Positions 4,820 through 64,000 of a DNA stretch of 64,000 bases are shown piece after piece. The notes below the pieces were generated by a model that saw only the letters and a program-made list of their open reading frames with translations, did not search any database and had not been told where the DNA came from. The stretch's first letter is position 1. Each line of letters begins with the position of its first letter. The DNA is taken from NCBI GenBank assembly GCA_037200965.1, contig JBBCGK010000001.1, positions 256,001 through 320,000 on the forward strand, given 5' to 3'. The position numbers and the translations under genes were made by a program. This DNA comes from a bacterium. GTDB taxonomy: Bacteria; Patescibacteriota; Minisyncoccia; Phycocordibacterales; Phycocordibacteraceae.

Positions 4820-4901
4820 CAGCACGTACCGCTGTCAACTTATACAACCCCCTCTCCTTTGCAGGAGCCCGGGGGTTGTTTCTTAATCCGCATCCCGCCC
4901 G

Positions 4902-5177
4902 CTAGGATGTAAACTTCGGTACCGACGGAATGCCGAACGTGCCCGTAATGACGCCCAATATGCCAAACACGCCGAAAATGATGACGAGGCCGACCAAGCC
5001 CCAGAGAATGGAACTCCTTCCCTCTTCCCGCGCGGTCTCGTCCCCGGCATTCGCAACGAACTTGAAGACGCCCCAGAGGAAGATGAGAAATGCCGCCGCA
5101 GCGATAAGCATGAGGAGCGGATTCACGATCTGCACCACGACGGTCTTGAGGAAATTATTCAATACGTCCATAGGCAT
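4902..5177 (-). CDS. Small two-TM protein with VirB2/TrbC-like topology (T4SS-pilin-like), paralog 1; no signal peptide
   Basis: Helix-loop-helix core FLIFLWGVFKFVANAGDETAREEGRSSILWGLVGLVIIFGV, shared with the five upstream paralogs. Confidence 0.55.
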   Translation of the reverse strand: MPMDVLNNFLKTVVVQIVNPLLMLIAAAAFLIFLWGVFKFVANAGDETAREEGRSSILWGLVGLVIIFGVFGILGVITGTFGIPSVPKFTS

Positions 5178-5236
5178 AAGAATAACACAAAGCCCCGGCC
5201 AGCGGCCGGGGCTTTGTGTTAAAACGCCGGGAGAAA

Positions 5237-5590
5237 CTAGAAGTCTGCCTGCGGAAGCGGAGGCGTCGCGTTATTGGTCGAGAAGGTACCTACGAGGATA
5301 TTCACGAGGCCCCAGATCGAGACCATAACGAAGAAGCCGATAAGGCCGTAGAGCATGAGTTTCTTGCCCTTTTCCTTCGCGTCTTCGTCGTTCGCCCCGA
5401 TGATGAAGACCTGGAAAGCGCCCCAGATGAAGACGATGAAGGCGACGGCAAAGAGCACCGGCACCAGGACGTTATTGATGATATTGATGACCGTGGTACC
5501 CACATCGGATACGCTTGAGATAGTGGCGGCACCGGCAAGGAGCGGCGTCAAAAGTGCGATTGCGGCAAACGGCGCGAGGTATTTCTTCAT
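5237..5590 (-). CDS. VirB2/TrbC-like pilin-like protein, paralog 2, with signal peptide
   Basis: Signal peptide MKKYLAPFAAIALLTPLLAGAA, then the two-hydrophobic-helix core VLFAVAFIVFIWGAFQVFIIGANDEDAKEKGKKLMLYGLIGFFVMVSIWGLVNIL. Confidence 0.6.
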   Translation of the reverse strand: MKKYLAPFAAIALLTPLLAGAATISSVSDVGTTVINIINNVLVPVLFAVAFIVFIWGAFQVFIIGANDEDAKEKGKKLMLYGLIGFFVMVSIWGLVNILVGTFSTNNATPPLPQADF

Positions 5591-5699
5591 AATGGTGATA
5601 TTCGTATAATGGCTCCCCGGCGTTGAGCGGAGTTCCCCTTATTCTAGCTTGCCTTCGCCCCAGGGCAAGCCGCGTCCCTGATTCGTGTGGATAAGAACC

Positions 5700-6122
5700 T
5701 TAAAGGGTCGGGTAGTCGGGCCGCGCGTATCCTCCAAGGCCGAGCGTATTGGAGAGGATATTGACCAGGCCCCACAGCGAGAACATCACCACGAAACCGA
5801 TCAGCCCCCAGAGGATGAACTGCCTTCCTTCCTTGCGCTTGTCCTCGTCCGCACCGCCCACGATGAAGTAGTTGAAGACGCCCCAGAGGAATACAAGGAA
5901 GGCGATGGTAAACAGGATGGGTACGAGAATATTGTTGATGACCACGAGCACAAGATCGCCGTAGTGGCCGAAGGCGCCCGCATTAACAACCGACACCGTC
6001 GGCCCCGGGCTTATCTGCGGAGTCCCGTCTCCCGTGACAGGATCGATCGCCGCAGCCGCATAGGAACAAAGCGGCGCCCCAAGAACCAGAAGCGCGATCA
6101 GGAAAGGAAGATATCGTTTCAT
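5700..6122 (-). CDS. VirB2/TrbC-like pilin-like protein, paralog 3, with signal peptide and a variable Gly/Pro/Thr-rich segment
   Basis: Signal peptide MKRYLPFLIALLVLGAPLCSYAAA; core FLVFLWGVFNYFIVGGADEDKRKEGRQFILWGLIGFVVMFSLWGLVNIL. Confidence 0.6.
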   Translation of the reverse strand: MKRYLPFLIALLVLGAPLCSYAAAAIDPVTGDGTPQISPGPTVSVVNAGAFGHYGDLVLVVINNILVPILFTIAFLVFLWGVFNYFIVGGADEDKRKEGRQFILWGLIGFVVMFSLWGLVNILSNTLGLGGYARPDYPTL

Positions 6123-6128
6123 ACGGGA

Positions 6129-6446
6129 TTAATAAGAAGTCGGATAAGCCGGATGGCGGTACCCGCCAAGATCGAACGTGTTAACGAGTATGTTGACCAG
6201 CCCCCATACCGAAAGCATGACGAAGAATCCGACGAGGCCGTACAGGATATACGTGCGGCCCGTCTCGCGTTTCGTTTCGTCGTCCGCGCCCAGTATGAAG
6301 TATTGGAAGACGCCCCAGATGAAGACGATGAAGGCGACGGCGAAAACGAGGGGAACGGCGACATTGTTGATGAGGCCGAGAATAGTACCGGCGATGCCCT
6401 GGAGGTTGCCGCAGTTTCCTACGCACAGCGAGAATGAGAATCCCAT
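6129..6446 (-). CDS. VirB2/TrbC-like pilin-like protein, paralog 4
   Basis: Core FAVAFIVFIWGVFQYFILGADDETKRETGRTYILYGLVGFFVMLSVWGLVNIL. Lies 6 nt downstream of paralog 3. Confidence 0.55.
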   Translation of the reverse strand: MGFSFSLCVGNCGNLQGIAGTILGLINNVAVPLVFAVAFIVFIWGVFQYFILGADDETKRETGRTYILYGLVGFFVMLSVWGLVNILVNTFDLGGYRHPAYPTSY

Positions 6447-6457
6447 ATGGTTTAGTA

Positions 6458-6703
6458 TTATAGCGCGATTATGCTAAGGCCGATGCGTATCAATCCCCAG
6501 ACCCCGAACATGACCACAAGCCCGATCAGCCCCCAGAGGATGAACTGCCTTCCTTCCTTGCGCTTGTCCTCGTCCGCGCCGCCCACGATGAAGTAGTTGA
6601 AGACGCCCCAGAGGAATGCGAATCCCGCAAGCGCAAAGACGACAGGAATGACAATCCCGCCTATGATGGCTACGATCGAATTGACGAGTTCGGCAAAGGT
6701 CAT
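6458..6703 (-). CDS. VirB2/TrbC-like pilin-like protein, paralog 5. Start chosen at the internal Met (MTFAELVNS...) because the N-terminal extension shown in the ORF track overlaps the upstream gene.
   Basis: Core FAFLWGVFNYFIVGGADEDKRKEGRQFILWGLIGLVVMFGVWGLI is nearly identical to paralog 3. The ATG lies 1 nt after the stop of the upstream gene. Confidence 0.5.
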   Translation of the reverse strand: MTFAELVNSIVAIIGGIVIPVVFALAGFAFLWGVFNYFIVGGADEDKRKEGRQFILWGLIGLVVMFGVWGLIRIGLSIIAL

Positions 6704-6704
6704 A

Positions 6705-7247
6705 TCAGGTGCCAAGCGCCTGTACCGTCGCCTGGATTCCGAGCGAGATCGCCTTGGCGCCAAGGAGAATGAGCGCTCCGACGACCGTCCACAGGAGCGC
6801 CTCGCGCGCCTCCTTTATTTTTTCTTCCGCTCCCTGCGCGGTCACGAATTTGAAACCTACGTAGACGAGCATCAAGACGATGACGATGCCGCCGATCTGT
6901 ATCACGAGGTCGAGGACGGCATTGAGGAAATCCGGAATCGTCGAAAAGCCGAGAGGATTCGTAAGGCCGCTTCCGCCTCCCCCGCCGCCTGGAACCGTTC
7001 CCGCCGGACGGCATACTCCCGCCACGCAGGTATCAGTGCCGGTGCAGGCAGGCTTGCAGGCTGAACCGCCGGGAACGGTACCGGCCGCTTGGCATTTGCC
7101 GTTGACGCATGTATCGGTACCGGTGCAAGCAGGAAGGCAGGCGGAGTCGGCGGCCTGCGCAGGAGCAGGTACGAGGATAAACACCATGAGAAACGCGACC
7201 GTGGCCGGAACAATAAAATACTTGCCTGTAGCGTTCATGATTTTCAT
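6705..7247 (-). CDS. Pilin-like paralog 6: signal peptide, two tandem Cys-rich repeats (ACxPACTGTDTCVxGxCxxAGTVPGG), a Gly-rich linker, then the VirB2-like two-TM C-terminal core
   Basis: Start at MKIMNATGKYF (ATGA overlap with the stop of the SBP gene). Repeats ADSACLPACTGTDTCVNGKCQAAGTVPGG and SACKPACTGTDTCVAGVCRPAGTVPGG. C-terminal FKFVTAQGAEEKIKEAREALLWTVVGALILLGA. Confidence 0.55.
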   Translation of the reverse strand: MKIMNATGKYFIVPATVAFLMVFILVPAPAQAADSACLPACTGTDTCVNGKCQAAGTVPGGSACKPACTGTDTCVAGVCRPAGTVPGGGGGGSGLTNPLGFSTIPDFLNAVLDLVIQIGGIVIVLMLVYVGFKFVTAQGAEEKIKEAREALLWTVVGALILLGAKAISLGIQATVQALGT

Positions 7248-8542
7248 TGTATCGCCTGAGTCAGCGCGCGCTCGGCGGAAACAAGGGCTTCGCTTAGGGA
7301 TACGCGTCCGGTAATCACGTCCATAATCATAGCGCCGAATATGCGGTCCGTATCCTCGGGCGCTGGGGACAGCCATCCCCGGCTTATAAGCGCTTCGCGA
7401 TAAAAGACCGAAGCGAAAGGATCGGCGGGCTCGGTTCCAAGAAGCGACAGGCGTGCGGGCGCAAGCCCCGTGGCGCCCGCAAGCGCGGTCATAACCGCGG
7501 GATCCGCGAGCGCGACGGCGGCGCTATAGGCACCGGCGGGGTTCGGACTCCCTTTGGGGATAGCGAACGCGTAGAGGTCGCCGAACGTAATCCGGTTCAC
7601 GGCATTCCCCGTCTGCGGCAAGGCCGCGACATCGAAATCGAGATTGGGATTCGCCGCACGCAGGAACGGCGCATCGGACGCGAAGCCGATATACAGCGCG
7701 AGATCGCCGGAGACGAACGCCTGCCTTGAATCCGGGAGCGACCCGTTCCAGGTATAGGAAACTTTCGAAGGATCGGCGAACTGGGTGTAGTAGCGCACCA
7801 CGGCCTCCCCGGGAGAGACGCCGCCAAAGCTTTGCGTCTCGGCGCCAAGCGATGCCTTGAGGCCGAGTGTCGTGCGGGCCGAGAGCGGTACTCCGCTTTG
7901 GAGAAAGAGCGCGGAAAGAATAGCGCCCGCGTGGTCGACGTTGGCATAGGTTCCAAGACCGATGAGCCCGCGCTCGATGTTCCTCCCTCCGTCAAGCTGC
8001 GCCGTACGCGGCACGAGTCCGACAAGGGCCTCCCATGCCGACGGAGGAGCTACGATACCGGCGGACGAGAGAGTCGCGCGGTTGTAGTAGAGGACGAGCG
8101 GATCGACCGCGAGCGGAATGCCGTAGACCCCGTCGGACGCAAGGAAAAGCTGCCCTTCCTGCACGAACGCGTCGGTAAAGGCGCGCGCCGAAATCGAGCT
8201 GTACGGGATCGGTATAAGCTTGTCCTCAAGCGAGACGAGATGCTCCTGGCTTATGAGCACCAGGTCGGGGCCCGTACCCGACGCCAGAGCGTCGACGAGT
8301 TCCCGTTCGAAGGTCGCGGGCTGCTTGCCGACATACCGTATGCCCTTAAGCTCGGTATTCTGGCCCGTAATGTTCGCAAGAGCCGGGGCGATCTCGTCCT
8401 GAGGGAGCGTGCCCCATATCGTCACCGTCCCGATGGAGCCGGTGCCGGAGGAGCCGGTGAAGGTCGCGAAGACGAAGATGCCGATTAGCGCGAGGAGGAC
8501 AAACGCGCCGATGATTCCCGCCTGGAAAAATGAGATCTTCAT
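7244..8542 (-). CDS. Extracellular solute-binding protein (family-1 SBP-like; ABC-type sugar-binding fold) with an N-terminal membrane anchor
   Basis: Start taken at MKISFFQAGIIGAFVLLALIGIF. Motifs LISQEHLVSLEDKLIPIP and GVYGIPLAVDPLVLYYNR are typical of SBP_bac_1. Confidence 0.6.
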   Translation of the reverse strand: MKISFFQAGIIGAFVLLALIGIFVFATFTGSSGTGSIGTVTIWGTLPQDEIAPALANITGQNTELKGIRYVGKQPATFERELVDALASGTGPDLVLISQEHLVSLEDKLIPIPYSSISARAFTDAFVQEGQLFLASDGVYGIPLAVDPLVLYYNRATLSSAGIVAPPSAWEALVGLVPRTAQLDGGRNIERGLIGLGTYANVDHAGAILSALFLQSGVPLSARTTLGLKASLGAETQSFGGVSPGEAVVRYYTQFADPSKVSYTWNGSLPDSRQAFVSGDLALYIGFASDAPFLRAANPNLDFDVAALPQTGNAVNRITFGDLYAFAIPKGSPNPAGAYSAAVALADPAVMTALAGATGLAPARLSLLGTEPADPFASVFYREALISRGWLSPAPEDTDRIFGAMIMDVITGRVSLSEALVSAERALTQAIQ

Positions 8543-8543
8543 G

Positions 8544-9074
8544 TTAGGGAGCGGTAAATACGATGCCGTAGTGATGGGGGCCGGCGCTGAACTTCTTAAC
8601 CACATGGAAACCGGCGGCGGCAAAGACCGCTTCGGCCGCTTGTTCGTTCACCACGTGTGAAGGGTCCGGGCCGAGCCCCCCGTACGCTCCGGCCCAATCG
8701 ATGACCAGAAGCTTCCCTCCGGGCTTAAGAATACGGCGCAGTTCGGCCGCGACTATCGCCTTCTCTTTTATCTGAAACAGCGTGTTGGAAAGAATCGCAC
8801 CGTCGACCGCCTGATCCCGAAGCGTGGTTCCGCGCGGCTTCTCGATATCGCCCCATACGGTTTCTATGGTCCGCACCCCCTGCTCCCGCGCCGTTCCCTG
8901 AATGCGCTTCAGCACATCCTCCTGAACATCGATCGCATATACCCGCCCGTCCACCCCCACGGCGTGCGCCGCGGCAAGGGAATAGTGTCCGCTCCCCGCC
9001 CCGAGGTCCGCCACTTTCACTCCTTCCCTGAGGCCCATCTGCAGTACGTTCGTCTTCGGATCGGCGAAATTCAT
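8544..9074 (-). CDS. Class I SAM-dependent methyltransferase
   Basis: Motif I VADLGAGSGHYSL, and acidic residues after beta-2 (AIDVQED). The stop lies 1 nt before the SBP start. Start chosen at MNFADPK, with a tatact -10-like box upstream; the longer start at 9125 is also possible. Confidence 0.65.
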   Translation of the reverse strand: MNFADPKTNVLQMGLREGVKVADLGAGSGHYSLAAAHAVGVDGRVYAIDVQEDVLKRIQGTAREQGVRTIETVWGDIEKPRGTTLRDQAVDGAILSNTLFQIKEKAIVAAELRRILKPGGKLLVIDWAGAYGGLGPDPSHVVNEQAAEAVFAAAGFHVVKKFSAGPHHYGIVFTAP

Positions 9075-9194
9075 GCGATCAGTATAGCAAGAGCGCCCGC
9101 GCTGCTGGCGCATAGTCAACAGCATATAAAAACAGGCGGTCTTTCGGCCGTCCGCGCCACAAGCATTGCTTCCGGGAGCGAAACGGCCCGGCGA

Positions 9195-9587
9195 TTAATG
9201 AACGGTCGCCGCGGTGCCTTCAAGAACCACGCGCCCGGTCTTATAAAGCGACACATCGATGCTTCGTCCGGGAGCGACCGGAACCGCAAATGTTTCGAGC
9301 AGTTCCGCGGCGGGCGCATCGGTTTTGTGCCGCTCGTTAAAGCCCGTGATGCCGGCTACGAAATCCGTCGCGGCCATATCCGGGTCCTTGAGCGCTATCA
9401 CCAGCTTCGCCGCTTCCGGAGAGAAGCGGTAGAGAGTGGTCATGTGCGCTTCCATCTGCCCGCGCTCGAGCATGAGCTGGTCGGCTGATTTTTCGATGGG
9501 CGCGAGCGTGCTCGCAACGGAAGCGGGTTCCGCCTTCTTTTCGCTTGGCACAAGCCTCCGAATCAGTCCTTCAAAGGGGTTTGCCAT
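9195..9587 (-). CDS. Hypothetical protein
   Basis: 130-aa ORF with coherent codon usage and no recognisable motif. Confidence 0.4.
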   Translation of the reverse strand: MANPFEGLIRRLVPSEKKAEPASVASTLAPIEKSADQLMLERGQMEAHMTTLYRFSPEAAKLVIALKDPDMAATDFVAGITGFNERHKTDAPAAELLETFAVPVAPGRSIDVSLYKTGRVVLEGTAATVH

Positions 9588-9676
9588 CAGCTAACGGTAG
9601 CACGAACCGAAACGATGGCGAAAAGCCGCTTCAGGGTGTATAAGTAGCGCGGTTAGGAAAGAAGGAGAACAGCATC

Positions 9677-10297
9677 ATGTCCGAAGTATTCCATGTACAT
9701 ACCTTCGCAGGACTGAACGGTCCGCCCGTTCTCGTCGCCTGCTTCTGGCACCCTGTGCTCCTGACCGGAGGTATCGGGTTTTGCATGAAGCAAGCCGATG
9801 CGGAGAAAATCGCGGCGACAAAGTCCCTGCCTGAAGGAGACCGCACCAGTGTCTTGAGCGCGCTCAAGATGCTTCCGAAAAGCAGCCCGGAGTTGGCGTT
9901 CACGTTGAGGGGTCGATATACAGGGTCGTTTATCGGTCTCGTCAACGACTTCAAGCCACTCATCGGTCGCATCGTCGCCCGTCCGCACACGAAACCGGTT
10001 TTTTGGGCCATGTGGCCTCCGGACGCCGATGGGACGGCCGAAACGACACTGATGTGGTTCACCCCAAGCAAAGGTTACGAGGTCGGCGTCGTTTTTTCCG
10101 TCGAACAATTCGAAGCTCTTGTCCACGAACTCGATTCGGCCAATTTGCTCAACGACCAGCTTCGAGCTGAGTTCAAGGCGAACAAGTGGCGCGTCGAAGC
10201 GCGGCGCGGCGAAGTGTGGGAGCCTATTCGCGTCACCGGATCGCCAGCCCGCATCATCTGCATCGGCTCGATGGTTATAGAACGGGCGAAGATGTAA
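9677..10297 (+). CDS. Hypothetical protein
   Basis: Strong SD gaaggagaac 6 nt before the ATG. An intrinsic terminator follows (10320-10357). Preferred over the overlapping minus ORF 9653..10330. Confidence 0.55.
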   Translation: MSEVFHVHTFAGLNGPPVLVACFWHPVLLTGGIGFCMKQADAEKIAATKSLPEGDRTSVLSALKMLPKSSPELAFTLRGRYTGSFIGLVNDFKPLIGRIVARPHTKPVFWAMWPPDADGTAETTLMWFTPSKGYEVGVVFSVEQFEALVHELDSANLLNDQLRAEFKANKWRVEARRGEVWEPIRVTGSPARIICIGSMVIERAKM

Positions 10298-10319
10298 GTG
10301 AGTCGCTGCCTCCCTGAAG

Positions 10320-10357
10320 CCGCCGGGCATTCCTGCCCGGCGGTCTTTCTTTTTCTC
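10320..10357 (+). terminator. Rho-independent terminator
   Basis: Hairpin ccgccgggca-ttcc-tgcccggcgg followed by tctttctttttct. Confidence 0.7.
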
Positions 10358-10361
10358 CTAG

Positions 10362-10670
10362 CTATGCGAGTACGTAAATATCTATCACCGGTTCCTCATA
10401 CGGATGTACGCGTTTGATGGCCGCGATCACCTTCTCAACGAGTTCGTCTTCGCAATTCACTTCTATTCGCTCCTCTTCCACTTCCTCGGGCTTCCCCGCT
10501 TCCCCGATGGCCGGACTCGCGCCTTCCTGTGGTACAAACCTGCCGACGCCTTTGGTACTGAAACTGCAGAATGCATAGTTACCGATTTTTCCCGCACCTG
10601 CTTCTCCCATCGCTTGCCGGACCGTATCGGCAACTTCACCCGCGGGTGCCGTGACGACGATTTTCTTCAT
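10362..10670 (-). CDS. Small PII/CutA-like protein resembling the C-terminal domain of NIF3/YqfO-family proteins
   Basis: A 102-aa protein ending in the ...HPYEEPVIDIYVLA motif that is characteristic of NIF3/CutA-like folds. Confidence 0.4.
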   Translation of the reverse strand: MKKIVVTAPAGEVADTVRQAMGEAGAGKIGNYAFCSFSTKGVGRFVPQEGASPAIGEAGKPEEVEEERIEVNCEDELVEKVIAAIKRVHPYEEPVIDIYVLA

Positions 10671-10679
10671 GTATGTATG

Positions 10680-13600
10680 TTAAAGCGCCACCATCGACGC
10701 GATTGAATCGCCCTCGTAGAGCCGCATGATACGCACGCCCTGGGTCGCGCGGGAAAGCGACGGCACTTCCTTGGCGGTGATGCGGATAACCTGTCCCTTT
10801 TTAGAAACAACGACGATTTCCTCATCCGACACGTCCTTCCCGAGAAGCACTTTCGCGCCGATGATCTCGCCCGTCTTCGGTGTCACCTCTGCCGTCTTGA
10901 TGCCGGAACCTCCCCGGCCTTGCACCTTGTATTCGGAAAGCTCGGTCGACTTGCCGTATCCTTTCGACATGATGACGAGGAGGGACGCGTCCTTGGCTGC
11001 GGCCGAAATCACTTCCGCGGAAACGACCGTGTCGCCCTTGCGCACGCTCATGCCGCGCACGCCTCCGGCGGTCCGCCCCATCGCGCGCACGTCGCCCTCC
11101 TCGAAGCGGATGCTTTGGCCCTTGGCGGTTACGATCGAAACGCTGTCGCTCTCTTCGGCAAGATGCGCGGCAACGAGCTTATCGCCGTCCTTGAGGTTGA
11201 TCGCGATGATGCCCGAGCGGCGTACATCCGCGAAGGACTTTGCTTCCACTTTTTTCACAATGCCGTTTGCCGTCACGAAGAATACCGACAAGGCGTCGCG
11301 CTCGGCGCCCTTGGGGACCGGAAGTACCGAAGTCACCTTCTCGTCACCGGCAAGCGGAAGGAAGTTCATCATGCTCTTTCCCTTGGTCGCGCGCTTCCCT
11401 TCGGGGATCTCGTACATCTTGAGCTGGTATGCCTTGCCGTAGTCGGTGAAGAAGAGGAGGTCGGAGTGCGCCGAGGCCGCGAGGAAGTGCGTCACGACGT
11501 CCTCCTCCTTGGTCGAGAGGTCGACGACGCCGACGCCGCCGCGCTTCTGCGTCTTGTATTCCGACGGGTTCGTGCGCTTCACGTAGCCTCCGGCGGTGAG
11601 GACGAGGACGGACTCCTCGTCCGGCACCAGGTCTTCGACGGAGATGTTCTGAACCCCGCCTTTGACGATCTTCGTGCGGCGGTCGTCGCCGTATTTCTCG
11701 CCGATAGCGACGAGTTCCGTCTTCACGACCGCGAGGATGTTCTTTGCGGAAGAGAGTATCTTCTCGAGCTTCGCGATAAGCGCCTGGACCTCCGCCAGTT
11801 CGTCCTCGATCTTCTTGCGCTCGAGGCCCGCGAGTTTCGACAGCCGCATCTCGAGGATCGCCGCCGCCTGAAGCTCCGAAAATGCGAATTTCTTCTGGAG
11901 CGCGAGGGACGCGGCCGGGACATCGGCGGCTTTCTTGATGATCGCGATGACCTCGTCGATATGGTCGAGCGCTTTCGAAAGTCCGAGGAGGATGTGCTCG
12001 CGCGCCTTCGCCTGCCGGAGATCGAATTCGGTACGCCGCTTCACCACTACTCTCCGGTGTTCTATGAAATTCTCGAGAATGCCCTTGAGCGAAAGCGTCT
12101 GCGGCACGCCGTCGACGAGCGCAAGCATGTTGTAGTGGAAAGCGCTCTCGAGCTCGGTGTGCTTATAAATCGTATTGAGGACGGCCTGCGGGTGCGCCGT
12201 GCCTTTGAGCTCGACGACAATGCGGGTCTCAAATGACGTCGTCGACTCGTCGCGCAGGTCCCGTACGCCCTCGAGCTTCTTGTCGCGCACGAGATCGGCG
12301 ATGCGGGTGATGAGGTCGGCTTTATTGACGCGGTACGGGATCGAGGTGATGACAATTTTCGAATCCTTCTTGCCGTCGTCGACGATCTCCGCTTCGCCGC
12401 GCACCACGACCCCGCCCCGTCCGCTTATGTACGCCTGCCTGATATCGGCCTGGTTAAAGGCAACCCCCCCGAGCGGGAAATCCGGGCCTTTGACGAATTT
12501 GAGGAGGTCCTCGGTCGTCGCCTCGGGCTCGTCGATGAGGTGCACGGTCGCGTCGACCACTTCCCGCAGGTTATGGGGCGGTATTGCGGTTGCCATGCCG
12601 ACCGCGATACCGAGCGTGCCGTTAAGGAGAAGGTTCGGCACGGCGGCGGGAAGCACGGATGGCTCCTTACGGCTCGCGTCATAGTTGGGGTTCCATTCGA
12701 CCGTGTCCTTGTCGAGGTCGTTCATGATGTCCTCCGCGATGCGCGACATCTTGGCCTCGGTATTGTGGTTTATGAATCCGTTAGCGACAAAGGAGTGGCA
12801 CTCGCTTCGCACCCGGATCGAATACACAGGAGCTGGTGCCTCGTTCGTTACGGAAGCCACTACATCGAACAAATACCGGTGGCGCGAGAGTTCGCCGAAC
12901 AGCGCCTCGACCGTCGGACGCACATGCGGCAGCACGGCGGAGGCGACGAGCGGGCCATGTTCGGCAAGCGCGGTGTATCGGTCGAAATTATGCTTGCGTA
13001 CGAATCTCCCGATACCCTGATAGCTCGGCGGTGCAAGATGCGAACGCACGTATCCTGCGATGAACGGCACGTAGTCGGTAGCCGATGAGTCCTTGGAGAG
13101 CCGCGCGATCGCTTTGCCAAGCTTCGTTTTCTTGCGCGCGGAAACAAAACCGATCTCGCGCTCAAAGAGGCGGTAGTCATGGAGACCCCGTATATAGAGC
13201 TTTTCGATCGCGCGGTGGCAGTCGTGACGGCGCGTGCTTGCGATGCCAAGGCGCATAAGAACGACCTGCATTTCGTCGAGAAGCGCCGTGCTCTTAGATA
13301 CGACGCTCAATTCCGTCATTTTCGACGAGAAGCTTATGCCGCCGTCGCCTTCAAAATACGCCTGAAGGAAAGCTGCGACGACTGGCTTCGGAGACCGCAG
13401 CACCGAGAACGGGATACGCTTTTCGGGCGATTTTACCGGCGCAAGCCCTATAGCGCGCAGAAACGCAATCACATATTGCGAGTGAATCTCGATGGTGTAG
13501 TACGGCTTCTTACCATAGGAAGACGGTTCGCGCCTGAAGTGGTGCAGGCGGCAGCCAGGAAACACGCGGGCGAAGCGCTCGACGAAGGCCTGGATGAGGT

Positions 13601-14489
13601 CGGGGTCGCTGTTGCAGAACTCCAACTCCTTTTCCTTGATGGTACCTTCCGATACGAGGAGGCCGAGGATGAATGCCAGGTCTTCGGTAAGCTCCGCAGG
13701 CAGCTGCTGTACTGTAATCCGTTTGTTCGCGACTTTCGGAACAAAGGGCGTGAGGGAGAGCGGGTGTTCCGGCCACAAAAGGTCGGGGGTCCGATCCATC
13801 ACCACCACGTCGCCTTCGTCGATATCGGCAAGAAGCTTCCACGCGAAGCGGGGTACGCCAGTTGCCGGATCCTCGTGCCAGATAAGAAGCGGGTGGTTGC
13901 GGGAACCACGGATCCGGTATCCCCGATTGGTTTTGAGGGCTATCGTTGGATGAACGCCGCTATCGAACCACGCATCGGCCGAATTGATCCGGCCGTTCAT
14001 CGAAATCACCCGCGCCTCGATTTCTTCCGTGCCGTCGTCGGATAGTTCCTTGATGGGAACCAGACCCTTATCTGTCGCAACAAGCGTGTCCCCCGTGACG
14101 CAATACCGCATGGCGGCTGGCGAGTCGCCGTCGATCGAGCCGAAATTGCCCTGCCCGATCACGAGCGGATAGCGGTGCGAGAAATCCTGCGCAAGCTTCG
14201 TCATCGCGTCATAGACGCTCGCGTCGCCGTGCGGATGGTATTTGCCGAGCACGTCGCCGACGACAAGCGCGGACTTGCGGAATTTCGCGCCCGCCGTGAG
14301 CCCAAGCTCGCTCATGGCGTAAAGGATGCGGCGGTGTACCGGCTTCAGGCCGTCGCGCACGTCGGGAAGCGCGCGGGAGGTGATCACGCTCATCGCGTAA
14401 TCGACGTAGGAGGTGCGCATCTCGCCCGTGATGCTCTGCCCTATGATGCGCCCGCCAAGCGGTACGGCCGACTGTTCTTCCTTAGCCAT
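10680..14489 (-). CDS. gyrA: DNA gyrase subunit A interrupted by a 447-aa intein; the exteins total 822 aa
   Basis: N-terminus ...[13 protein letters not shown]...GKYHPHGD...SPAAMRY; the C-terminal GyrA beta-pinwheel repeats are intact. The intein lies between AAMRY and TEAKMS. Confidence 0.9.
12762..14102 (-). mobile_element. GyrA intein at the canonical gyrA-a site, with an embedded LAGLIDADG homing-endonuclease domain
   Basis: Begins CVTGDTLV (block A) and ends VANGFINHN followed by extein T (HN|T). Two LAGLIDADG motifs: [14 protein letters not shown] and [14 protein letters not shown]. Confidence 0.85.
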
Positions 14490-45924: not shown

Positions 45925-46352
45925 ATGGGGAACAGTATACGCGAACGACAGGCTCGCGCGCCCAAAAGCGCGGCATAAACAGGGAAGTCGGAGCGGGGAA
46001 ATTGCGGGAGGGAAGTCGGACAAGGGGATTGCATTGTGTCTCGTTAGAAAGGCTATGTGCTGTCACATAGGGACTGCTGCTGCGTGCATCCAAAAAGGGT
46101 CTTGATCACCGCAGCCGAGCGATAGAGAGCCTATCCGGGACTATTTGACAGTATATGAAGATTGTATAGTTATCCACAGGTGCCGTTTACGAGATAAAAT
46201 CTAGATAAAATCTCGGTTAGGCAAGTTTTGTGTTTTGAGGTCATAAAATTATGACACGACTCCCCTGCTCCGCTGCTTCGTTTCAGCAAAATTATGTATC
46301 TCGTATCAAGAACTTATCGAGATCTGTATTCTTGAGTGTTTCAAATATACGG

Positions 46353-47030
46353 ATGCATTCGCGCTTTGAATACCTAAAGAACGAGGCGGTGAAGTTGCGC
46401 AAACGTGGAAAATCGTTGAGAGCCATCGAAGGCCTGCTTGACGTTCCTCGTTCGACACTCAGCGGGTGGCTTAAGAACGTTTCCCTGAGTGCGAAACATA
46501 AAGCGTCCCTCGAGAGGAAATGGAGGCTGGCGCTCACGATCGCAAGAACCGAAGCGGTCCGTTGGCACAATACCCAGAGAAACAAGAGACTGGAAGAAGC
46601 CGCTGAGGCAGCAGAAAAGACTCTTCAAAAGATAGGAGACGACTCAGAAATGCTTGAGCTCGCACTCGCTATGCTCTATCTCGGAGAAGGCGGAAAGACA
46701 AAGACGTCTCTTACTCTTGGAAACTCAGATCCGCTCATCGTGCGGTTTTATGTCAACGCGCTTGAGCGTTTATACGGAATCGCCAAAAGCAGGCTGCGGG
46801 CCGAGTTGCATTTGCGCGCGGATCAGGACGAAAACAAGTTAAAAAGATTCTGGTCGAAAGCGACCGGAATTCCCTTGAGACGTTTTGTATACAGCGTAAA
46901 GGATCAGCGCACTTTGGGCCGCGCGACCTATCCCGGGTATAAGGGCGTTTGTGCGGTATCCGGCGGGGGTGTGGCAATCCAGAGAAAATTAATGTATCTT
47001 GCTAAAGCATTTACAAAACGACATTCGTAA
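46353..47030 (+). CDS. HTH plus LAGLIDADG homing-endonuclease-like protein, paralog 1. The track ORF starts at 46251.
   Basis: HTH LRKRGKSLRAIEGLLDVPRSTLSGWL, LAGLIDADG-type motif LALAMLYLGEGGKT, then LGNSDPLIVRFYVNALERL. The stop lies 2 nt before tRNA-Val. Confidence 0.65.
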   Translation: MHSRFEYLKNEAVKLRKRGKSLRAIEGLLDVPRSTLSGWLKNVSLSAKHKASLERKWRLALTIARTEAVRWHNTQRNKRLEEAAEAAEKTLQKIGDDSEMLELALAMLYLGEGGKTKTSLTLGNSDPLIVRFYVNALERLYGIAKSRLRAELHLRADQDENKLKRFWSKATGIPLRRFVYSVKDQRTLGRATYPGYKGVCAVSGGGVAIQRKLMYLAKAFTKRHS

Positions 47031-54826: not shown

Positions 54827-54827
54827 G

Positions 54828-54920: not shown

Positions 54921-55616
54921 TTAATATCCTTCTTTCACGCCCTCAATCATACCCATCAAATAGTGGAACTTTGGAGTATCATTGACCTGAATCTGAAGGG
55001 TCCCCCACGGCAAACGGTTGTATGGGCGGATTCCCTTGCTGGCACCGGTAATTAGGTAGCTGCTTTTGAAAAAACGTTCCTTGGGAAGTCTTGTAATGCT
55101 GGCCCAATAACGGAGCGCTTCGGCCTCATTGATGTGCGGGTAGAGACGCATAACGAGACGTATCTTCTCAACAGGAATTTCCATAACTTCCCGTAAAAAA
55201 CGCAGGAATACCCGTATCATCTCCGGATCTGAATTAACGAAACTGATAGTGTGGCACATGCGCGCCTTGCCATCCACCACCTTAAGTCTTTTGTACCCTT
55301 CCGCCCAATAAAGAAGAGCGCCAGCAAATAGCAGGTTTGCCTTGGAAAACTTCGGGACAACCGTTCTTCCTTCCCGCGCGGCATTGCGCGCTCGACGTTC
55401 CGCGTGAACGGTTTGCATCTTGTTTCTTTTTAAGAACGCGTCCGTCACTCCAAGACGGACTCGGGCCTTAAGGCGTGCGTTCGCTTTGTCTGAAAGTACT
55501 AAGTCGCGAAGCCATAGTGACAGCGTCGATTTCGCTACCGGAACTTCCTTCCGAATTTCGTTGTAACTCTTGCCCGCTATCCGCAGTCTGACCGCCCGGT
55601 CTCGAAACGGGTTCAT
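54921..55616 (-). CDS. HTH plus LAGLIDADG homing-endonuclease-like protein, paralog 2
   Basis: HTH LRIAGKSYNEIRKEVPVAKSTLSLWL, LLFAGALLYWAEGYK, then FVNSDPEMIRVFLRFLREV. The stop lies 21 nt upstream of the tRNA-Phe 5' end on the same strand. Confidence 0.65.
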   Translation of the reverse strand: MNPFRDRAVRLRIAGKSYNEIRKEVPVAKSTLSLWLRDLVLSDKANARLKARVRLGVTDAFLKRNKMQTVHAERRARNAAREGRTVVPKFSKANLLFAGALLYWAEGYKRLKVVDGKARMCHTISFVNSDPEMIRVFLRFLREVMEIPVEKIRLVMRLYPHINEAEALRYWASITRLPKERFFKSSYLITGASKGIRPYNRLPWGTLQIQVNDTPKFHYLMGMIEGVKEGY

Positions 55617-56159: not shown

Positions 56160-56209
56160 GCCGTGAAGCTATGAGGATAATGCCGGAAATTATAGCACTG
56201 GTTTTTGAG

Positions 56210-56288: not shown

Positions 56289-56921
56289 TTATACTAGCCG
56301 TTTACCTGATTCTGCGCCAATAAGACCTATGGCACTTTGCACGAATAAGCGTTCCTGTATCCCCGACGACACCCGAACTCGGCACATTCCGTACGGCAAT
56401 TTCCCTTTCTTTTTCCCTTTGATTATTTCAATCCTGGTAATCTTTGCGATCGGCAACCCGGTAACTCGAGCCCAGAATATCTTCGCTCTTTGAACAGGGA
56501 TATCATCATGAAGCCGGAGAGAAAGCGAGAGTCTTGCTGATGCAATGTTAAGCGTACGAAGACAGCGGAGGAAAGTACATATAAGAGATGGATCTGAATT
56601 TATCAATGAAAAGTCCTTTTTCGTACCTTCACCCCAATAAATGCCAATAAGGAGAAACAAGAGATCTCTATTTGAAAGCCTCCCCAAAGCTGACGACGAG
56701 CGCTCCAGGATACTTTCGCGTCGAGCTTGGGAGCGCTCTCGTGAACCTCCTTGTTTCCCCCTAAGCAGCGCCTGAAATTCGGGAAGGACTGAAACATGCT
56801 GAACGTAGCGCAGCACGGTTGTTTTGGAGGTTCCTGTTTCTTTAGAAATTTCCGGAATACTTTTGCCTTTTTTTCGTAAATGTACAACTCGGTTACGCTG
56901 TTGCTCGGATATTTTTCTCAT
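56289..56921 (-). CDS. HTH plus LAGLIDADG homing-endonuclease-like protein, paralog 3
   Basis: HTH LRKKGKSIPEISKETGTSKTTVLRYV, LLFLLIGIYWGEGTK, then LINSDPSLICTFLRCLRTL. The stop lies 6 nt upstream of the tRNA-Arg 5' end. Confidence 0.65.
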   Translation of the reverse strand: MRKISEQQRNRVVHLRKKGKSIPEISKETGTSKTTVLRYVQHVSVLPEFQALLRGKQGGSRERSQARRESILERSSSALGRLSNRDLLFLLIGIYWGEGTKKDFSLINSDPSLICTFLRCLRTLNIASARLSLSLRLHDDIPVQRAKIFWARVTGLPIAKITRIEIIKGKKKGKLPYGMCRVRVSSGIQERLFVQSAIGLIGAESGKRLV

Positions 56922-61414: not shown

Positions 61415-63217
61415 TTATCGGTCGCTTCCCTGCACCATTTTCATGAACACCTCTTCCGGAATATTTACCTTCCCCGTACCGTGCTCCTTGAGCTTCTTCT
61501 TTCCCTTCTTCTGCTTCTGAAGAAGCTTGTTCTTGCGCGATACGTCGCCGCCATAGAGCCCTGCCGTCACGTCCTTCCTCATCGCCGAGAGCGAGCGCGA
61601 AGCGATGATGCGTCCGAGTGCCCGCGCCTGAATTTTCGCGACGAACTGTTGTTTGGGAAGTATGTCGTGGAGCTTTTCGACCATCTTCTCCCCTTCCTCC
61701 TGTACCCGCCTCCTTGAAATCACGCGCGCGAACGCAGGCACCGGCTCCTCCGCGACGAGGATGTCGAGCCGTACGACATCCGCCGGACGCTCGTCGAGGA
61801 ATTCATACGAGAGCGACGCATACCCCGACGATACGCTCTTTACCCGGTCGAAAAAGCCGCGCATGAGTTCCCGAAGCGGCATCTCGGCCGTCATCTCGAT
61901 GCGCCCGTCGTCATAGCCGATGGTACCGGTCGTGTTCGCCTCATGCTCGTGAAAAAGCTGCACCAATGCGCTCACCGCATCCGGCGGCATAAGCACTATC
62001 ACCTTCACCCACGGCTCTTCGATGAGCTCGATATCCCCGAAGTCGGGAAAGCGCGAAGGAGTATACACGACTTCCCTGCCCTTGCGGGTCGTGACCGCGT
62101 ACGCGATGGTCGGGATGGTGACGATAAGGGCGAGCGAGAACTCGCGCTTCAAACGTTCGGAAATGATCTCGAGGTGGAGCATGCCGAGGAATCCGCACCG
62201 GAAACCCCGGCCGAGCACTCCGGACGACTCCTCCTCAAACGAAAGCGAGGAATCGGTGAGCCGGAGGCGCTCGAGCGCCTGGCGAAGCAAGGGAAGGTCA
62301 TCCTGACTCTCGGGGTATACCGAGGCCCAGACGACCGGCCGGGGCCGCTCGAAGCCTCCCAGGGCCGGGAGAAGGCCTCTTGGAACCCCTATCGTATCTC
62401 CCACCGCCACCACCCCCGGCTCCTTGACCCCGGTGATCACATACCCGATCTCGCCGGGGCCGAGCATCTCGGCAGGAGTTTCGTCGGGCGCGAAGATGCC
62501 GACTTCAAGCGCGGTGAAGGTATTCCCCGCTGCATGGAATAGAAGCGGCTGTCCTTTCTTCAGGGTTCCGTCGAAGACGCGCAGATAGACGGTGACGCCG
62601 CGATGCGTCGAATATGAAAAGTCGAAGATGGTCGCGCGCGGTTCGTCCGCGACCGCGGCGCGCGGCGGAGGCACCCGGTCGACGACCGCCCCGAGAAGCT
62701 CGTCAACCCCCTCGCCGCTTTTGCCGGAGACCGCGAGTACCGTGTCCGGAGAAACCGCAAGGAGTTTCGCGAGCTCCTGCTTCACTTCCGGCACGCGCGC
62801 GTACGGTGAATCGATCTTCGAGACGACCGGTATGATCGTACAGCCCGCGTTCTTCGCCATCGCGAGCGTTGTCAGAGTTTGCGCCTGGACACCCTGCGTC
62901 GAGTCGACGAGGAGGAGAACGCCTTCGACCGCGGAGAGCGCCCGCGACACTTCGTATGAGAAGTCGATATGCCCCGGCGTGTCGATGAGGTTCAAAACAT
63001 AACTCGTTCCGTTCTTTTCGTACTTCATCCGCACCGGCTGCATCTTGATCGTGATGCCGCGCTCGCGCTCGAGGTCCATGCGGTCGAGCACCTGGTCCCG
63101 CATCTTGCGCGTCTCTATGGTGTGGGTGGCCTCAAGAAGCCGGTCGGCAAGCGTCGACTTACCGTGGTCCACGTGTGCCACGATGCTGAAGTTCCTCAGA
63201 TTATATAATTGTGCCAT
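61415..63217 (-). CDS. lepA: Elongation factor 4 (LepA)
   Basis: NFSIVAHVDHGKSTLADRL, DTPGHIDF, and the LepA-specific C-terminal domain. Confidence 0.9.
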   Translation of the reverse strand: MAQLYNLRNFSIVAHVDHGKSTLADRLLEATHTIETRKMRDQVLDRMDLERERGITIKMQPVRMKYEKNGTSYVLNLIDTPGHIDFSYEVSRALSAVEGVLLLVDSTQGVQAQTLTTLAMAKNAGCTIIPVVSKIDSPYARVPEVKQELAKLLAVSPDTVLAVSGKSGEGVDELLGAVVDRVPPPRAAVADEPRATIFDFSYSTHRGVTVYLRVFDGTLKKGQPLLFHAAGNTFTALEVGIFAPDETPAEMLGPGEIGYVITGVKEPGVVAVGDTIGVPRGLLPALGGFERPRPVVWASVYPESQDDLPLLRQALERLRLTDSSLSFEEESSGVLGRGFRCGFLGMLHLEIISERLKREFSLALIVTIPTIAYAVTTRKGREVVYTPSRFPDFGDIELIEEPWVKVIVLMPPDAVSALVQLFHEHEANTTGTIGYDDGRIEMTAEMPLRELMRGFFDRVKSVSSGYASLSYEFLDERPADVVRLDILVAEEPVPAFARVISRRRVQEEGEKMVEKLHDILPKQQFVAKIQARALGRIIASRSLSAMRKDVTAGLYGGDVSRKNKLLQKQKKGKKKLKEHGTGKVNIPEEVFMKMVQGSDR

Positions 63218-64000
63218 TGCGCCTTCGCTGTTGAATATTGCTTAATACCTTATTCGCGTCGGAAACCCTCTTTTGGTGCGTCAGAAAAGGCTTAAGCAAA
63301 AAGATGAGCACCTCAAGTGAGCTTGATTCGTTGACCGAGACTCTCCATACGTTCTGTTTCCATATCCATCCGTAATCATTGTCGCCCTTTCGCGCGATAA
63401 TACGGGACTTGCTGCGAATACCAGAGCGAAGAAATAACTTGTGGATATCGGCAAGAATTGCTTGATCGTAGGCGTCAATCTTGAACCTTCCCTTTCCTTG
63501 ATTCAAGCCAAACGTGCCCTCCGCGTCAATATAGCCAGCCGCGAAAGCCCATAGTAGCGTTTCGTTCGAAGAAAGCCAGCGGCGCATTCCGGGCGGATAC
63601 TTTCCGAGCAGAAATGTAAAGGATCGATTGAGATAACAGTTCAGGTGGGCGCTTCGGGAATTACGAGAAATAGTAACAGTACCGTACTGGCAAAACAGCT
63701 CCTTAAAAAGTCTCTCCTGCGCTAGATGGGTGGTGTGACAACGAACAACAACTGTTTCTGACACACCCGGTGGGACATACGCGTTCAAATCTCCATATTT
63801 GAAACCGAGCAGATATGCTTTATCAATGTCTGATCCGCTAAAGTCCTTCCTTGGATACTTAGTTTGCGCAGCGCTCTTACTTTTTAGAGAAATGTCTGCT
63901 TCAATAAGGCGATTTCTGATCGTTATTGAGGTGCAACCGTATTTTTGTGCAATTTTCGCCGGACTCCATTTCCTATGAAGATATAGTTTCTCTAAATCGG
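63201..64000 (-). CDS. HTH plus double-LAGLIDADG homing-endonuclease-like protein, paralog 4. The N-terminus lies beyond the window end. It overlaps the lepA start region by 17 nt.
   Basis: Upstream of the track start, the same frame continues to the window edge: ...WSPAKIAQKYGCTSITIRNRLIEADISL (HTH) ...KAYLLGFKYGDL (motif 1) ... LLWAFAAGYIDAEGTF (motif 2). Confidence 0.55.
   Translation of the reverse strand, partial: DLEKLYLHRKWSPAKIAQKYGCTSITIRNRLIEADISLKSKSAAQTKYPRKDFSGSDIDKAYLLGFKYGDLNAYVPPGVSETVVVRCHTTHLAQERLFKELFCQYGTVTISRNSRSAHLNCYLNRSFTFLLGKYPPGMRRWLSSNETLLWAFAAGYIDAEGTFGLNQGKGRFKIDAYDQAILADIHKLFLRSGIRSKSRIIARKGDNDYGWIWKQNVWRVSVNESSSLEVLIFLLKPFLTHQKRVSDANKVLSNIQQRRRNGTII

What the first reader, a model, noticed from the sequence alone, without database searches (positions are those of the whole stretch)
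12762..14102. GyrA intein with a LAGLIDADG endonuclease at the conserved gyrA-a site
The 1269-aa GyrA ORF contains a 447-aa insertion. Its boundaries are AAMRY|CVTGDTLV at the N-terminal side and VANGFINHN|TEAKMS at the C-terminal side. This is the classic gyrA-a insertion point next to the active-site Tyr. It has Cys1, a terminal His-Asn, and a +1 Thr. Internally it carries two LAGLIDADG motifs ([14 protein letters not shown] and [14 protein letters not shown]). An active, homing-competent intein in an essential gene is a marker of horizontal exchange. It is also the second class of LAGLIDADG element in this window, alongside the HE-like paralogs.
Basis: partly seen in the sequence, partly recalled or inferred. 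Interest (0 to 1): 0.55.

Follow-up and report, generated by a model that had tools for sequence, protein, structure and literature searches.

The report
LAGLIDADG intein in a CPR bacterium's gyrA
The gyrase A gene of this uncultured ultra-small (Patescibacteria/CPR) bacterium is interrupted, right after its catalytic tyrosine, by an intact self-splicing intein carrying a homing endonuclease; it is a real mobile element but an ordinary new member of a well-known class.

Summary
ORF 10680..14489 (-) encodes a 1269-aa GyrA. Residues 130-576 (window 12762..14102) are a 447-aa in-frame insertion between AAMRY and TEAKM.

It is a canonical class-1 intein. It has Cys1, block B S-R-N-H, block F His, terminal His-Asn and +1 Thr. 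It is homologous to the Mycobacterium xenopi GyrA intein (E=6e-23) and sits at the same gyrA-a site.

It encloses a two-motif LAGLIDADG endonuclease (E152, D253). The AlphaFold model has pLDDT 95.5 and resembles endonuclease-bearing inteins (TliVMA, PI-PfuI, PI-SceI).

The spliced exteins align colinearly with intein-less GyrA. All 79 closest Paceibacteria orthologs with the junction covered have an empty site, in a syntenic neighbourhood.

The nearest intein is 57% identical (Ca. Jorgensenbacteria) and sits in a GyrA only 52% identical. The intein's GC3 is 0.69 against 0.82 for the exteins. This patchy, incongruent distribution indicates horizontal gain by homing.

Splicing and endonuclease activity are inferred, not shown. 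GyrA inteins are long known, and CPR examples are already deposited, annotated only as GyrA.

The parts
10680..14489 (-). gyrA precursor ORF, 1269 aa including the intein; NCBI MEJ0053418.1, annotated only as 'DNA gyrase subunit A'
14103..14489 (-). N-extein, GyrA residues 1-129. It ends in AAMRY; Tyr129 (codon 14103-14105) is the catalytic tyrosine and the -1 residue of the intein.
12762..14102 (-). Intein, 447 aa
13788..14102 (-). N-terminal splicing (Hint) half, intein 1-105. Block A is CVTGD (14088-14102). Block B is S67-R-N-H70-PLL (13884-13904).
   Evidence: Homology to Mxe GyrA residues 3-109; TIGR01445; conservation; coordinates
13698..13787 (-). Linker, intein 106-135, mostly coil in the model; carries the conserved LWP motif
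13143..13697 (-). LAGLIDADG endonuclease core, intein 136-320, with two alpha-beta-beta-alpha-beta-beta-alpha halves
   Evidence: Pfam LAGLIDADG_3, two stretches; DSSP pattern of the model; Foldseek hits to PI-PfuI, I-DmoI, I-SceI
13638..13679 (-). LAGLIDADG motif 1, [14 protein letters not shown]; putative catalytic E152 followed by G153
   Evidence: E/D in 47 of 47 and G in 45 of 47 aligned family members
13335..13376 (-). LAGLIDADG motif 2, [14 protein letters not shown]; putative catalytic D253 followed by G254
   Evidence: D in 47 of 48 and G in 48 of 48
12882..13142 (-). Helical region, intein 321-407, with family-invariant TDYVPF and HNFDRY (12975-12992) motifs. It is probably an accessory DNA-binding or packing module (inferred).
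12762..12881 (-). C-terminal splicing half, intein 408-447. Blocks F/G are [22 protein letters not shown], with H436, H446 and N447.
   Evidence: Homology to Mxe GyrA residues 142-199; TIGR01443; conservation
10680..12761 (-). C-extein, GyrA residues 577-1269 plus the stop codon. It begins with +1 Thr (12759-12761), the nucleophile for trans-esterification.

Best explanation
This is a genuine class-1 intein with a nested two-motif LAGLIDADG homing endonuclease. It is inserted at the gyrA-a site, between the catalytic Tyr129 and Thr, of the single gyrA seen in this window. The host is a Patescibacteria (Paceibacteria-type CPR) genome.

Inferred mechanism, using standard intein chemistry. The 1269-aa precursor is translated. 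Cys1 performs an N-S acyl shift on the Tyr129-Cys peptide bond, helped by block B Ser67/His70. The thioester is transferred to the hydroxyl of Thr+1. Asn447 then cyclises, helped by His446 and block F His436, and releases the intein. An O-N shift leaves a native Tyr-Thr bond and an 822-aa functional GyrA. Because the -1 residue is the DNA-cleaving tyrosine itself, unspliced protein should be inactive, so splicing is under strong selection.

The freed 447-aa protein is predicted to be a monomeric PI-type endonuclease with E152 and D253 as metal ligands. It would cut the uninterrupted gyrA sequence ...GCC ATG CGG TAT|ACC GAG GCC AAG... in intein-less alleles. Recombinational repair from the occupied allele would then copy the intein in (homing). 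The intein reached this lineage horizontally rather than being ancestral.

Shown here: sequence anatomy, fold, site, absence from orthologs, and incongruent distribution. Inferred: splicing activity (about 0.9), present-day endonuclease activity (about 0.55), and the route of transfer.
For: The coordinates are exact and the ORF is intact. Pfam and NCBIfam intein and LAGLIDADG_3 models score above their cutoffs. Both splicing halves are homologous to the Mxe GyrA intein 1AM2 at E=6e-23.

The AF2 model has pLDDT 95.5 and pTM 0.94. Its best structural matches are endonuclease-bearing inteins: TliVMA 7QSS (TM 0.69/0.71), then PI-PfuI, PI-PkoII, PI-SceI, I-DmoI and Mxe GyrA.

All catalytic positions are conserved in a 48-sequence family alignment. 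The window copy departs from a >=85% consensus at only 3 conservative positions.

The spliced exteins are colinear with intein-less GyrA structures. Of the closest species-level relatives, 79 of 79 with the junction covered (62-80% GyrA identity) have an empty AA[MY]RY|TEA site. The S1 / MBL-fold / gyrA / SBP neighbourhood is the same in those relatives.

In the extein NJ tree the window is nested among empty-site taxa. The tree implies 2 gains against at least 10 precise losses. The closest intein (57%, Ca. Jorgensenbacteria PIP29913.1) lies in a GyrA only 52% identical, whereas a 66%-identical GyrA (L081) carries a 56% intein. Intein GC3 is 0.69 against 0.82 for the exteins.
Against: There is no biochemical evidence for splicing or DNA cleavage. 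LAGLIDADG domains can lose activity while keeping their motifs.

The relatives search used one pattern spanning the empty junction and ranked by tblastn, so occupied alleles may be under-sampled. Two points offset this: 26 of the 79 empty loci do not match that pattern, and an exhaustive intein search found nothing above 57% identity.

The extein tree is an unbootstrapped NJ tree. Across 19 occupied GyrAs, intein and extein identities are positively correlated (Spearman 0.60), so part of the distribution could be vertical.

The intein's GC3 of 0.69 lies at the low end of, but within, the range for host genes in the window (0.69-0.84). No closely related donor was found: the best match is 34% identical in viral contigs and 26% in cultured phages.
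Confidence: 0.9

Rival explanations
1. The intein splices, but its endonuclease is no longer active. This would be the late stage of the homing cycle: the element persists only because precise deletion from an essential active-site codon is hard.
For: Nothing in the data demonstrates cleavage. No near-identical copies exist in other genomes that would indicate very recent spread; the best match is 57%. The protein is the sole member of its 90% cluster.
Against: Both catalytic acidic residues, and essentially every family-conserved position in the endonuclease core, are intact. The domain folds with pLDDT above 90. The element is not fixed in the clade, since all close relatives are empty, which is the stage at which an active endonuclease is expected. 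Mini-inteins such as Mxe GyrA show that dead endonucleases tend to be deleted.
Confidence: 0.35
2. The 447 aa are a native, lineage-specific GyrA insertion domain, not a mobile intein.
For: The segment is in frame and uninterrupted within an essential gene.
Against: It is absent from 79 of 79 closest orthologs. It matches intein and LAGLIDADG models and the Mxe GyrA intein. It splits the invariant AAMRY-TE active-site motif. The same element occurs at the same site in unrelated phyla.
Confidence: 0.01
3. The arrangement is an assembly chimera: an intein-bearing gyrA fragment from another organism joined into this contig.
For: The intein's GC3 is lower than that of the flanking exteins. The source is a metagenome-assembled genome.
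Against: Both junctions fall exactly at codon boundaries, giving a continuous ORF. N- and C-exteins show the same about 80% identity to the same relatives. Flanking synteny is preserved on both sides. The contig is 960 kb.
Confidence: 0.02
4. Besides being selfish, the intein acts as a conditional post-translational switch on gyrase (for example, redox or metal control of Cys1), as proposed for some mycobacterial inteins.
For: The insertion lies at the catalytic Tyr, so the splicing rate gates gyrase activity. The literature describes conditional splicing of DnaB inteins (PMC7360933, listed). Surveys note that inteins cluster in replication proteins (PMC4760082).
Against: No feature specific to regulation was found. 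The sporadic distribution argues against a conserved host function.
Confidence: 0.1

Closest known systems
Mycobacterial gyrA-a inteins: the Mxe GyrA mini-intein (PDB 1AM2, 4OZ6) and, from my own knowledge, endonuclease-containing ones such as M. leprae GyrA
   Same: The insertion point is identical (AAMRY|C...HN|TE). Both have Cys1, penultimate His, terminal Asn and +1 Thr. Both splicing halves are homologous (E=6e-23).
   Different: Mxe is a 198-aa mini-intein without an endonuclease. The host phylum is Actinobacteria rather than Patescibacteria. The whole protein scores 1104 bits on NCBIfam NF038098 'GyrA_w_intein', below its 1850 cutoff.
GyrA inteins already deposited from CPR genomes: Ca. 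Jorgensenbacteria PIP29913.1 (P0086) and Ca. Daviesbacteria KKR81261.1 (P0008 cluster)
   Same: Same site, same length class (436-447 aa), same domain order, and the same invariant motifs, including HNFDRY and SFVANGF[IV]NHN.
   Different: They are only 57% and 47% identical. They sit in GyrAs that are more distant (52% for P0086) than many intein-less relatives. In the databases they are named simply 'DNA gyrase subunit A'.
Structurally characterised LAGLIDADG inteins: TliVMA (7QSS), PI-PfuI (1DQ3), PI-PkoII (2CW7), PI-SceI (1VDE)
   Same: The Hint splicing domain is split by a two-motif LAGLIDADG endonuclease. Whole-model TM is about 0.5-0.7.
   Different: Sequence identity is 10-22%, and the host genes differ (V-ATPase, RNR, PolB). 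This family has its own helical 321-407 module with the NFDR motif.
PhoH-inserted LAGLIDADG inteins
   Same: This is the next-closest sequence family, about 26-30% identical over the full intein length.
   Different: The host protein and insertion site differ, and block F has Asp where GyrA inteins have Ser.
LAGLIDADG homing endonucleases in CPR rRNA introns (e.g. I-ShaI; PMC11270868)
   Same: Same enzyme superfamily and same host radiation. Homing was inferred from a sporadic distribution.
   Different: They are intron-encoded, mostly single-domain homodimers, and are not fused to a protein-splicing domain.

Membership tests
Class-1 intein (Hint fold, four-step protein splicing) | N-terminal nucleophile Cys/Ser at position 1 (block A) | tested here: met
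   Cys1 is at codon 14100-14102. Cys is found in 42 of 42 aligned homologs.
Class-1 intein (Hint fold, four-step protein splicing) | Block B T/S-x-x-H | tested here: met
   S67-R-N-H70. H70 is present in every aligned sequence, and position 67 is T or S in all.
Class-1 intein (Hint fold, four-step protein splicing) | Block F His, penultimate His, terminal Asn, and +1 Cys/Ser/Thr | tested here: met
   H436, H446, N447 and Thr+1 are present. TIGR01443 scores above its cutoff.
Class-1 intein (Hint fold, four-step protein splicing) | Hint fold | tested here: met
   The AF2 model has pLDDT 95.5. Foldseek matches 1AM2, DnaB and RecA mini-inteins and large inteins. This is a predicted structure, not a solved one.
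Class-1 intein (Hint fold, four-step protein splicing) | In-frame insertion at a conserved host site, absent from orthologs, whose removal restores a colinear host protein | tested here: met
   79 of 79 orthologs are empty. The alignment to 4DDQ is colinear.
Class-1 intein (Hint fold, four-step protein splicing) | Demonstrated protein splicing | not testable with these tools
   Requires expression and SDS-PAGE or mass spectrometry.
gyrA-a intein allele | Insertion between the catalytic Tyr and the following Thr of GyrA | tested here: met
   AAMRY|C...HN|TEAKM in the window. The same junction occurs in all GyrA-type homologs.
gyrA-a intein allele | Sequence homology to known gyrA-a inteins | tested here: met
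   Mxe GyrA matches at E=6e-23.
NCBIfam NF038098 GyrA_w_intein (protein-level 'exception' model) | Whole-protein score at or above the 1850-bit cutoff | tested here: not met
   The score is 1104 bits. The protein is therefore outside that narrow, curated protein family, although it shows the same kind of arrangement.
LAGLIDADG homing endonuclease, two-motif monomeric (PI-type) | Two LAGLIDADG helices, each ending in an acidic residue followed by Gly | tested here: met
   E152-G153 and D253-G254 are conserved across the family.
LAGLIDADG homing endonuclease, two-motif monomeric (PI-type) | Pseudo-symmetric alpha-beta-beta-alpha-beta-beta-alpha fold, twice | tested here: met
   The DSSP order is H140-152/E/E/H167-180/E/E/H209-217 and H239-253/E/E/H272-284/E/E/H307-316. 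Foldseek matches I-DmoI, I-SceI and PI-PfuI. Pfam LAGLIDADG_3 scores 66 bits.
LAGLIDADG homing endonuclease, two-motif monomeric (PI-type) | Site-specific cleavage of the intein-less allele, and homing | not testable with these tools
   Only indirect evidence is available: the sporadic, incongruent distribution.

The most novel reading that the evidence does not exclude
This would be a currently active homing lineage circulating among Patescibacteria, ultra-small episymbionts with reduced recombination and repair gene sets, possibly shuttled by large phages that carry their own gyrase A genes with an intein at the same site. Five viral contigs show ..A.RY|C.. junctions. If so, the endonuclease would be a new PI-enzyme specific for the universally conserved gyrA active-site DNA. 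The genome's several LAGLIDADG_3-type genes (three tRNA-adjacent HTH paralogs sharing the intein's first motif block) might then be related free-standing or domesticated derivatives.
Probability: 0.3. Interest if true: 0.4.

Novelty: new member of a known kind. Interest (0 to 1): 0.2.

Why it matters
Practically, it matters for annotation. The public record (MEJ0053418.1) and its CPR relatives are labelled plain 'DNA gyrase subunit A', so the mature protein length, the active site and any phylogenetic use of gyrA need the intein removed.

Biologically, it adds a documented case of a selfish protein-splicing element being gained by a Patescibacteria lineage whose closest relatives all lack it. 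This complements the known abundance of LAGLIDADG elements in CPR rRNA genes.

As a resource, it offers a divergent full-length relative of the widely used Mxe GyrA intein, and a candidate rare-cutting endonuclease. None of this changes current understanding of inteins.

Tried and rejected
1. I looked for further copies of the intein in the window. phmmer against all six-frame ORFs found only the gyrA copy.

2. I tested whether R432, where many relatives have D/E, marks a defect. The column is variable (D/P/E/R/A), so this was rejected.

3. I looked for a close donor. The metagenome contig scan gave at most 56% identity. The exhaustive search of 1.84 billion representatives gave at most 57%. 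IMG/VR gave at most 34% and cultured phages about 25%, in helicase, terminase or RecA genes. No donor was identified.

4. NCBIfam GyrA_w_intein membership failed the cutoff.

5. In the first protein search many hits were 730-760 aa long. Inspection showed truncated or partial gene calls, not short GyrAs. Full-length forms (1230-1290 aa) appeared.

6. I tried using intein-versus-extein identity alone as a test of transfer. It is only suggestive, because the two are positively correlated overall (Spearman 0.60). The specific P0086/L081 reversal and the tree-based count are the informative parts.

7. Compositional evidence is real but modest. The intein's GC3 (0.69) equals the lowest host gene in the window.

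8. The native-domain and assembly-chimera readings were considered and rejected (see rival explanations).
Full report
**Observation**

The window contains one long ORF on the minus strand, 10680..14489, ATG to TAA, 1269 aa. Translating it and locating the quoted strings puts Cys1 of the insertion at GyrA residue 130 (codon 14100-14102). The last Asn is at residue 576 (codon 12762-12764) and the following Thr at codon 12759-12761. The two LAGLIDADG-like strings are at intein residues 142-155 and 243-256.

**What it is: sequence evidence**

- Pfam finds DNA_topoisoIV split into two stretches, six GyrA C-terminal blades, Intein_splicing (42.9 bits for the intein alone, cutoff 35.8) and LAGLIDADG_3 (66 bits, cutoff 22.5, two stretches).
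- NCBIfam finds gyrA equivalogs above cutoff for the exteins. It also finds intein_Nterm (38-42 bits, cutoff 24.5) and intein_Cterm (17.5-18.4 bits, cutoff 15.6).
- The curated 'intein-containing DNA gyrase subunit A' model NF038098 matches end to end, but at 1104 bits it is below its 1850 cutoff.
- Against PDB sequences the best hit is the Mycobacterium xenopi GyrA intein 1AM2 (E=6e-23). It aligns to intein 2-105 and 390-447, the two splicing halves.
- The middle of the intein aligns to the endonuclease domains of V-ATPase inteins and PI-PkoII.

**What it is: structure**

An AlphaFold2 model built on a 48-sequence alignment is very confident (mean pLDDT 95.5, pTM 0.94). Its order is beta-rich Hint half, linker, two alpha-beta-beta-alpha-beta-beta-alpha units, a five-helix region, then the beta-rich Hint half. 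Foldseek against the PDB returns endonuclease-bearing inteins first:
- TliVMA 7QSS, E=1.5e-24, TM 0.69/0.71
- PI-PfuI, PI-PkoII, PhoVMA, PI-SceI
- then free LAGLIDADG enzymes (I-Tsp061I, I-DmoI, I-SceI) and mini-inteins including Mxe GyrA

**Integrity**

In the family alignment the following are conserved: Cys1, block B [ST]67-x-N-H70, E/D152-G153, D253-G254, block F H436, H446 and N447. The window copy deviates from positions that are at least 85% conserved among GyrA-type homologs at only three sites, all conservative: L283M, F285L and N309D. R432, which looked odd next to D/E in close relatives, lies in a variable column. There is no frameshift, stop or truncation.

**Host gene and site**

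Joining the exteins in silico gives an 822-aa protein. Its first 498 residues align in a single ungapped stretch across the junction with B. subtilis GyrA 4DDQ (E=4e-171): 'DSAAAMRYTEARMSKI' against '[16 protein letters not shown]'. They also align with S. aureus, M. tuberculosis and E. coli GyrA structures. From established knowledge of GyrA, the Tyr in AAMRY is the DNA-cleaving tyrosine (E. coli Tyr122). The intein's -1 residue is therefore the catalytic residue, which is the gyrA-a site of the mycobacterial inteins. Every GyrA-type homolog of the intein recovered here has the same junction, A[AMY]RY|C...HN|TE.

**Organism and relatives**

The protein is in NCBI as MEJ0053418.1, 'MAG: DNA gyrase subunit A [bacterium]', on a 960-kb contig of GCA_037975565.1. 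It is the only member of its 90% cluster.

A scan of one genome per GTDB species with the spliced extein returned 80 loci. These are all Patescibacteria (Paceibacterota, Nomura-, Kaiser-, Adler- and Vogelbacteria, with some labelled Saccharibacteria) at 62-80% identity.

In all 79 loci where the junction is covered, the N- and C-extein probes abut with zero gap and read AA[MY]RYTEA[KR]. One of the six search patterns (MRYTEAKM) spans the junction and could favour empty alleles. However, 26 of the 79 loci do not match it (AAYRY......TEARM...TEAKI) and are empty as well.

The neighbourhood is conserved in these relatives: S1-domain protein, MBL-fold protein, small ORF, gyrA, solute-binding protein. 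They are therefore true orthologous loci. The target DNA around the junction is highly conserved: 46-54 of 60 bases are identical between the window's spliced site and L001-L009.

**Distribution and history**

- The word-indexed search found 85 relatives of the intein. The best were 51-54% identical. All the closer ones were in GyrA, from Patescibacteria, Niyogibacteria, Ktedonobacteraceae, Acidobacteria, Armatimonadetes, Actinobacteria and Campylobacterales MAGs. A PhoH-inserted family followed at about 28%.
- The exhaustive HMMER search of 1.84 billion cluster representatives found 209 proteins at E<=1e-30. The best was 57% identical (P0086, a 1288-aa GyrA of Ca. Jorgensenbacteria, PIP29913.1).
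- Another cluster contains Ca. Daviesbacteria GyrA from the 2015 groundwater genomes.
- Metagenome contigs gave five full occupied gyrA loci, L081-L085, with 48-56% intein identity.
- In an NJ tree of 84 exteins the window is nested within the L001-L009 clade, all of which are empty. The only other occupied ingroup tip, L081, is sister to the empty L033.
- On that tree, presence in the common ancestor would require at least 10 independent precise losses, against 2 gains.
- The window's closest intein (P0086, 57%) sits in a GyrA only 52% identical to the window's. L081, whose GyrA is 66% identical, has a 56% intein.
- Intein GC3 is 0.69 against 0.82 for the exteins. This is about 5 standard errors by my own two-proportion calculation on the counts, and synonymous-codon fit to host usage is poorer. 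However, 0.69 is also the lowest value seen among ten host genes in the window.

Together these results favour horizontal acquisition by homing. Caveats are that the tree is unbootstrapped and that intein and extein identities correlate overall (Spearman 0.60). Some vertical inheritance, or preferential transfer among relatives, is therefore likely too.

**Possible vectors**

IMG/VR contigs contain many related LAGLIDADG inteins, but at 34% identity or less. Five of the 80 loci (L100, L101, L105, L110, L115; three are on contigs of 260-320 kb) carry the intein at an ..A.RY|C.. junction of a GyrA-like gene. The same site is therefore occupied in apparently viral gyrase genes. None of these is close to the window's intein. 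Cultured phages hold only about 25% relatives, in helicase, terminase and RecA genes.

**Mechanism**

The splicing pathway (N-S shift at Cys1, trans-esterification to Thr+1, Asn447 cyclisation, O-N shift) and the homing pathway (cleavage of the empty allele, then recombinational copying) are inferred from the standard chemistry of class-1 inteins and LAGLIDADG enzymes. All required residues are present. Because the catalytic Tyr is the -1 residue and gyrase is essential, efficient splicing is strongly expected. Endonuclease activity is plausible, given intact motifs and an element that is not fixed in the clade, but it is unproven.

**Comparison with what is known**

GyrA inteins have been known since the 1990s in mycobacteria (own knowledge). 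A 2015 survey counted 50 GyrA inteins in Actinobacteria, Aquificae, Chloroflexi and Proteobacteria (PMC4760082). CPR bacteria are known for LAGLIDADG endonucleases in rRNA introns (PMC11270868). Full-text searches found no paper describing GyrA inteins in CPR/Patescibacteria, but such proteins are already deposited.

This is therefore a new, fairly divergent member (57% identity or less to anything sampled) of a known kind. It is not a new kind.

**Verdict**

Interest is low (0.2).

Noticed in passing
window 46251..47030 (+), 54921..55616 (-), 56289..56921 (-): Three paralogous ORFs of 210-259 aa, 25-30% identical to each other, each with an N-terminal resolvase-type HTH. Each lies directly beside a tRNA gene: tRNA-Val at 47033, tRNA-Phe at 54827-54899 and tRNA-Arg at 56209-56282. 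They share a single LAGLIDADG-like block plus an 'NSDP' motif with the intein's first endonuclease motif (hhalign prob 71%, E=3.6e-5; HMM hit to GyrA aa 271-311). Their function and the reason for the tRNA adjacency are unexplained.
   Followed up: partly
window 63204..63998 (-), running off the window end: An ORF fragment with an HTH-like N-terminus and a Pfam LAGLIDADG_3 domain (30 bits; motif AAGYIDAEG), immediately upstream of and slightly overlapping lepA (61415..63217). It has no intein splicing blocks, so it looks like a free-standing LAGLIDADG protein. It is not detectably similar to the three paralogs.
   Followed up: partly
L082 (metagenome contig ERZ1292623...length-65130), GyrA ORF at locus 4404-9435: This related GyrA carries two inteins only 12 residues apart. 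One is a 390-aa intein (Pfam Intein_splicing 69.8 bits, no LAGLIDADG hit) at GQGNWG|C...FVHN|SIDGD. The other is the gyrA-a LAGLIDADG intein at AAMRY|C...HN|TEA.
   Followed up: partly
L100, L101, L105, L110, L115 (IMG/VR contigs; three of 260-320 kb): Contigs classified as viral encode GyrA-like proteins interrupted at the same ..A.RY|C.. site by LAGLIDADG inteins 27-34% identical to the window's. These may be phage-borne gyrA-a inteins. The viral nature of the contigs was not checked.
   Followed up: partly
window about 4900..6800: A run of repeated protein-coding modules. Adjacent ORF segments are 40-80% identical to each other on both strands in six-frame translation. The 250-aa ORF 5685..6437 has no Pfam hit.
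   Followed up: no
window 8623..10680, between gyrA and the solute-binding protein gene: This stretch is about 1 kb longer than the equivalent spacer in relative L003. It holds ORFs (e.g. 9677..10297 (+), 206 aa, no Pfam hit) with no tblastn match in any of the 80 related loci. The small ORF 10362..10670 just downstream of gyrA is found only in L002.
   Followed up: no
Homologous-protein output: Many intein-containing GyrA entries in the protein collection are truncated at about 730-760 aa even on long contigs (e.g. P0008 on a 40-kb contig, P0039 on a 697-kb contig with a frameshifted tail). Intein-bearing gyrA genes therefore seem to be often broken or mis-called in metagenome gene predictions.
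   Followed up: partly
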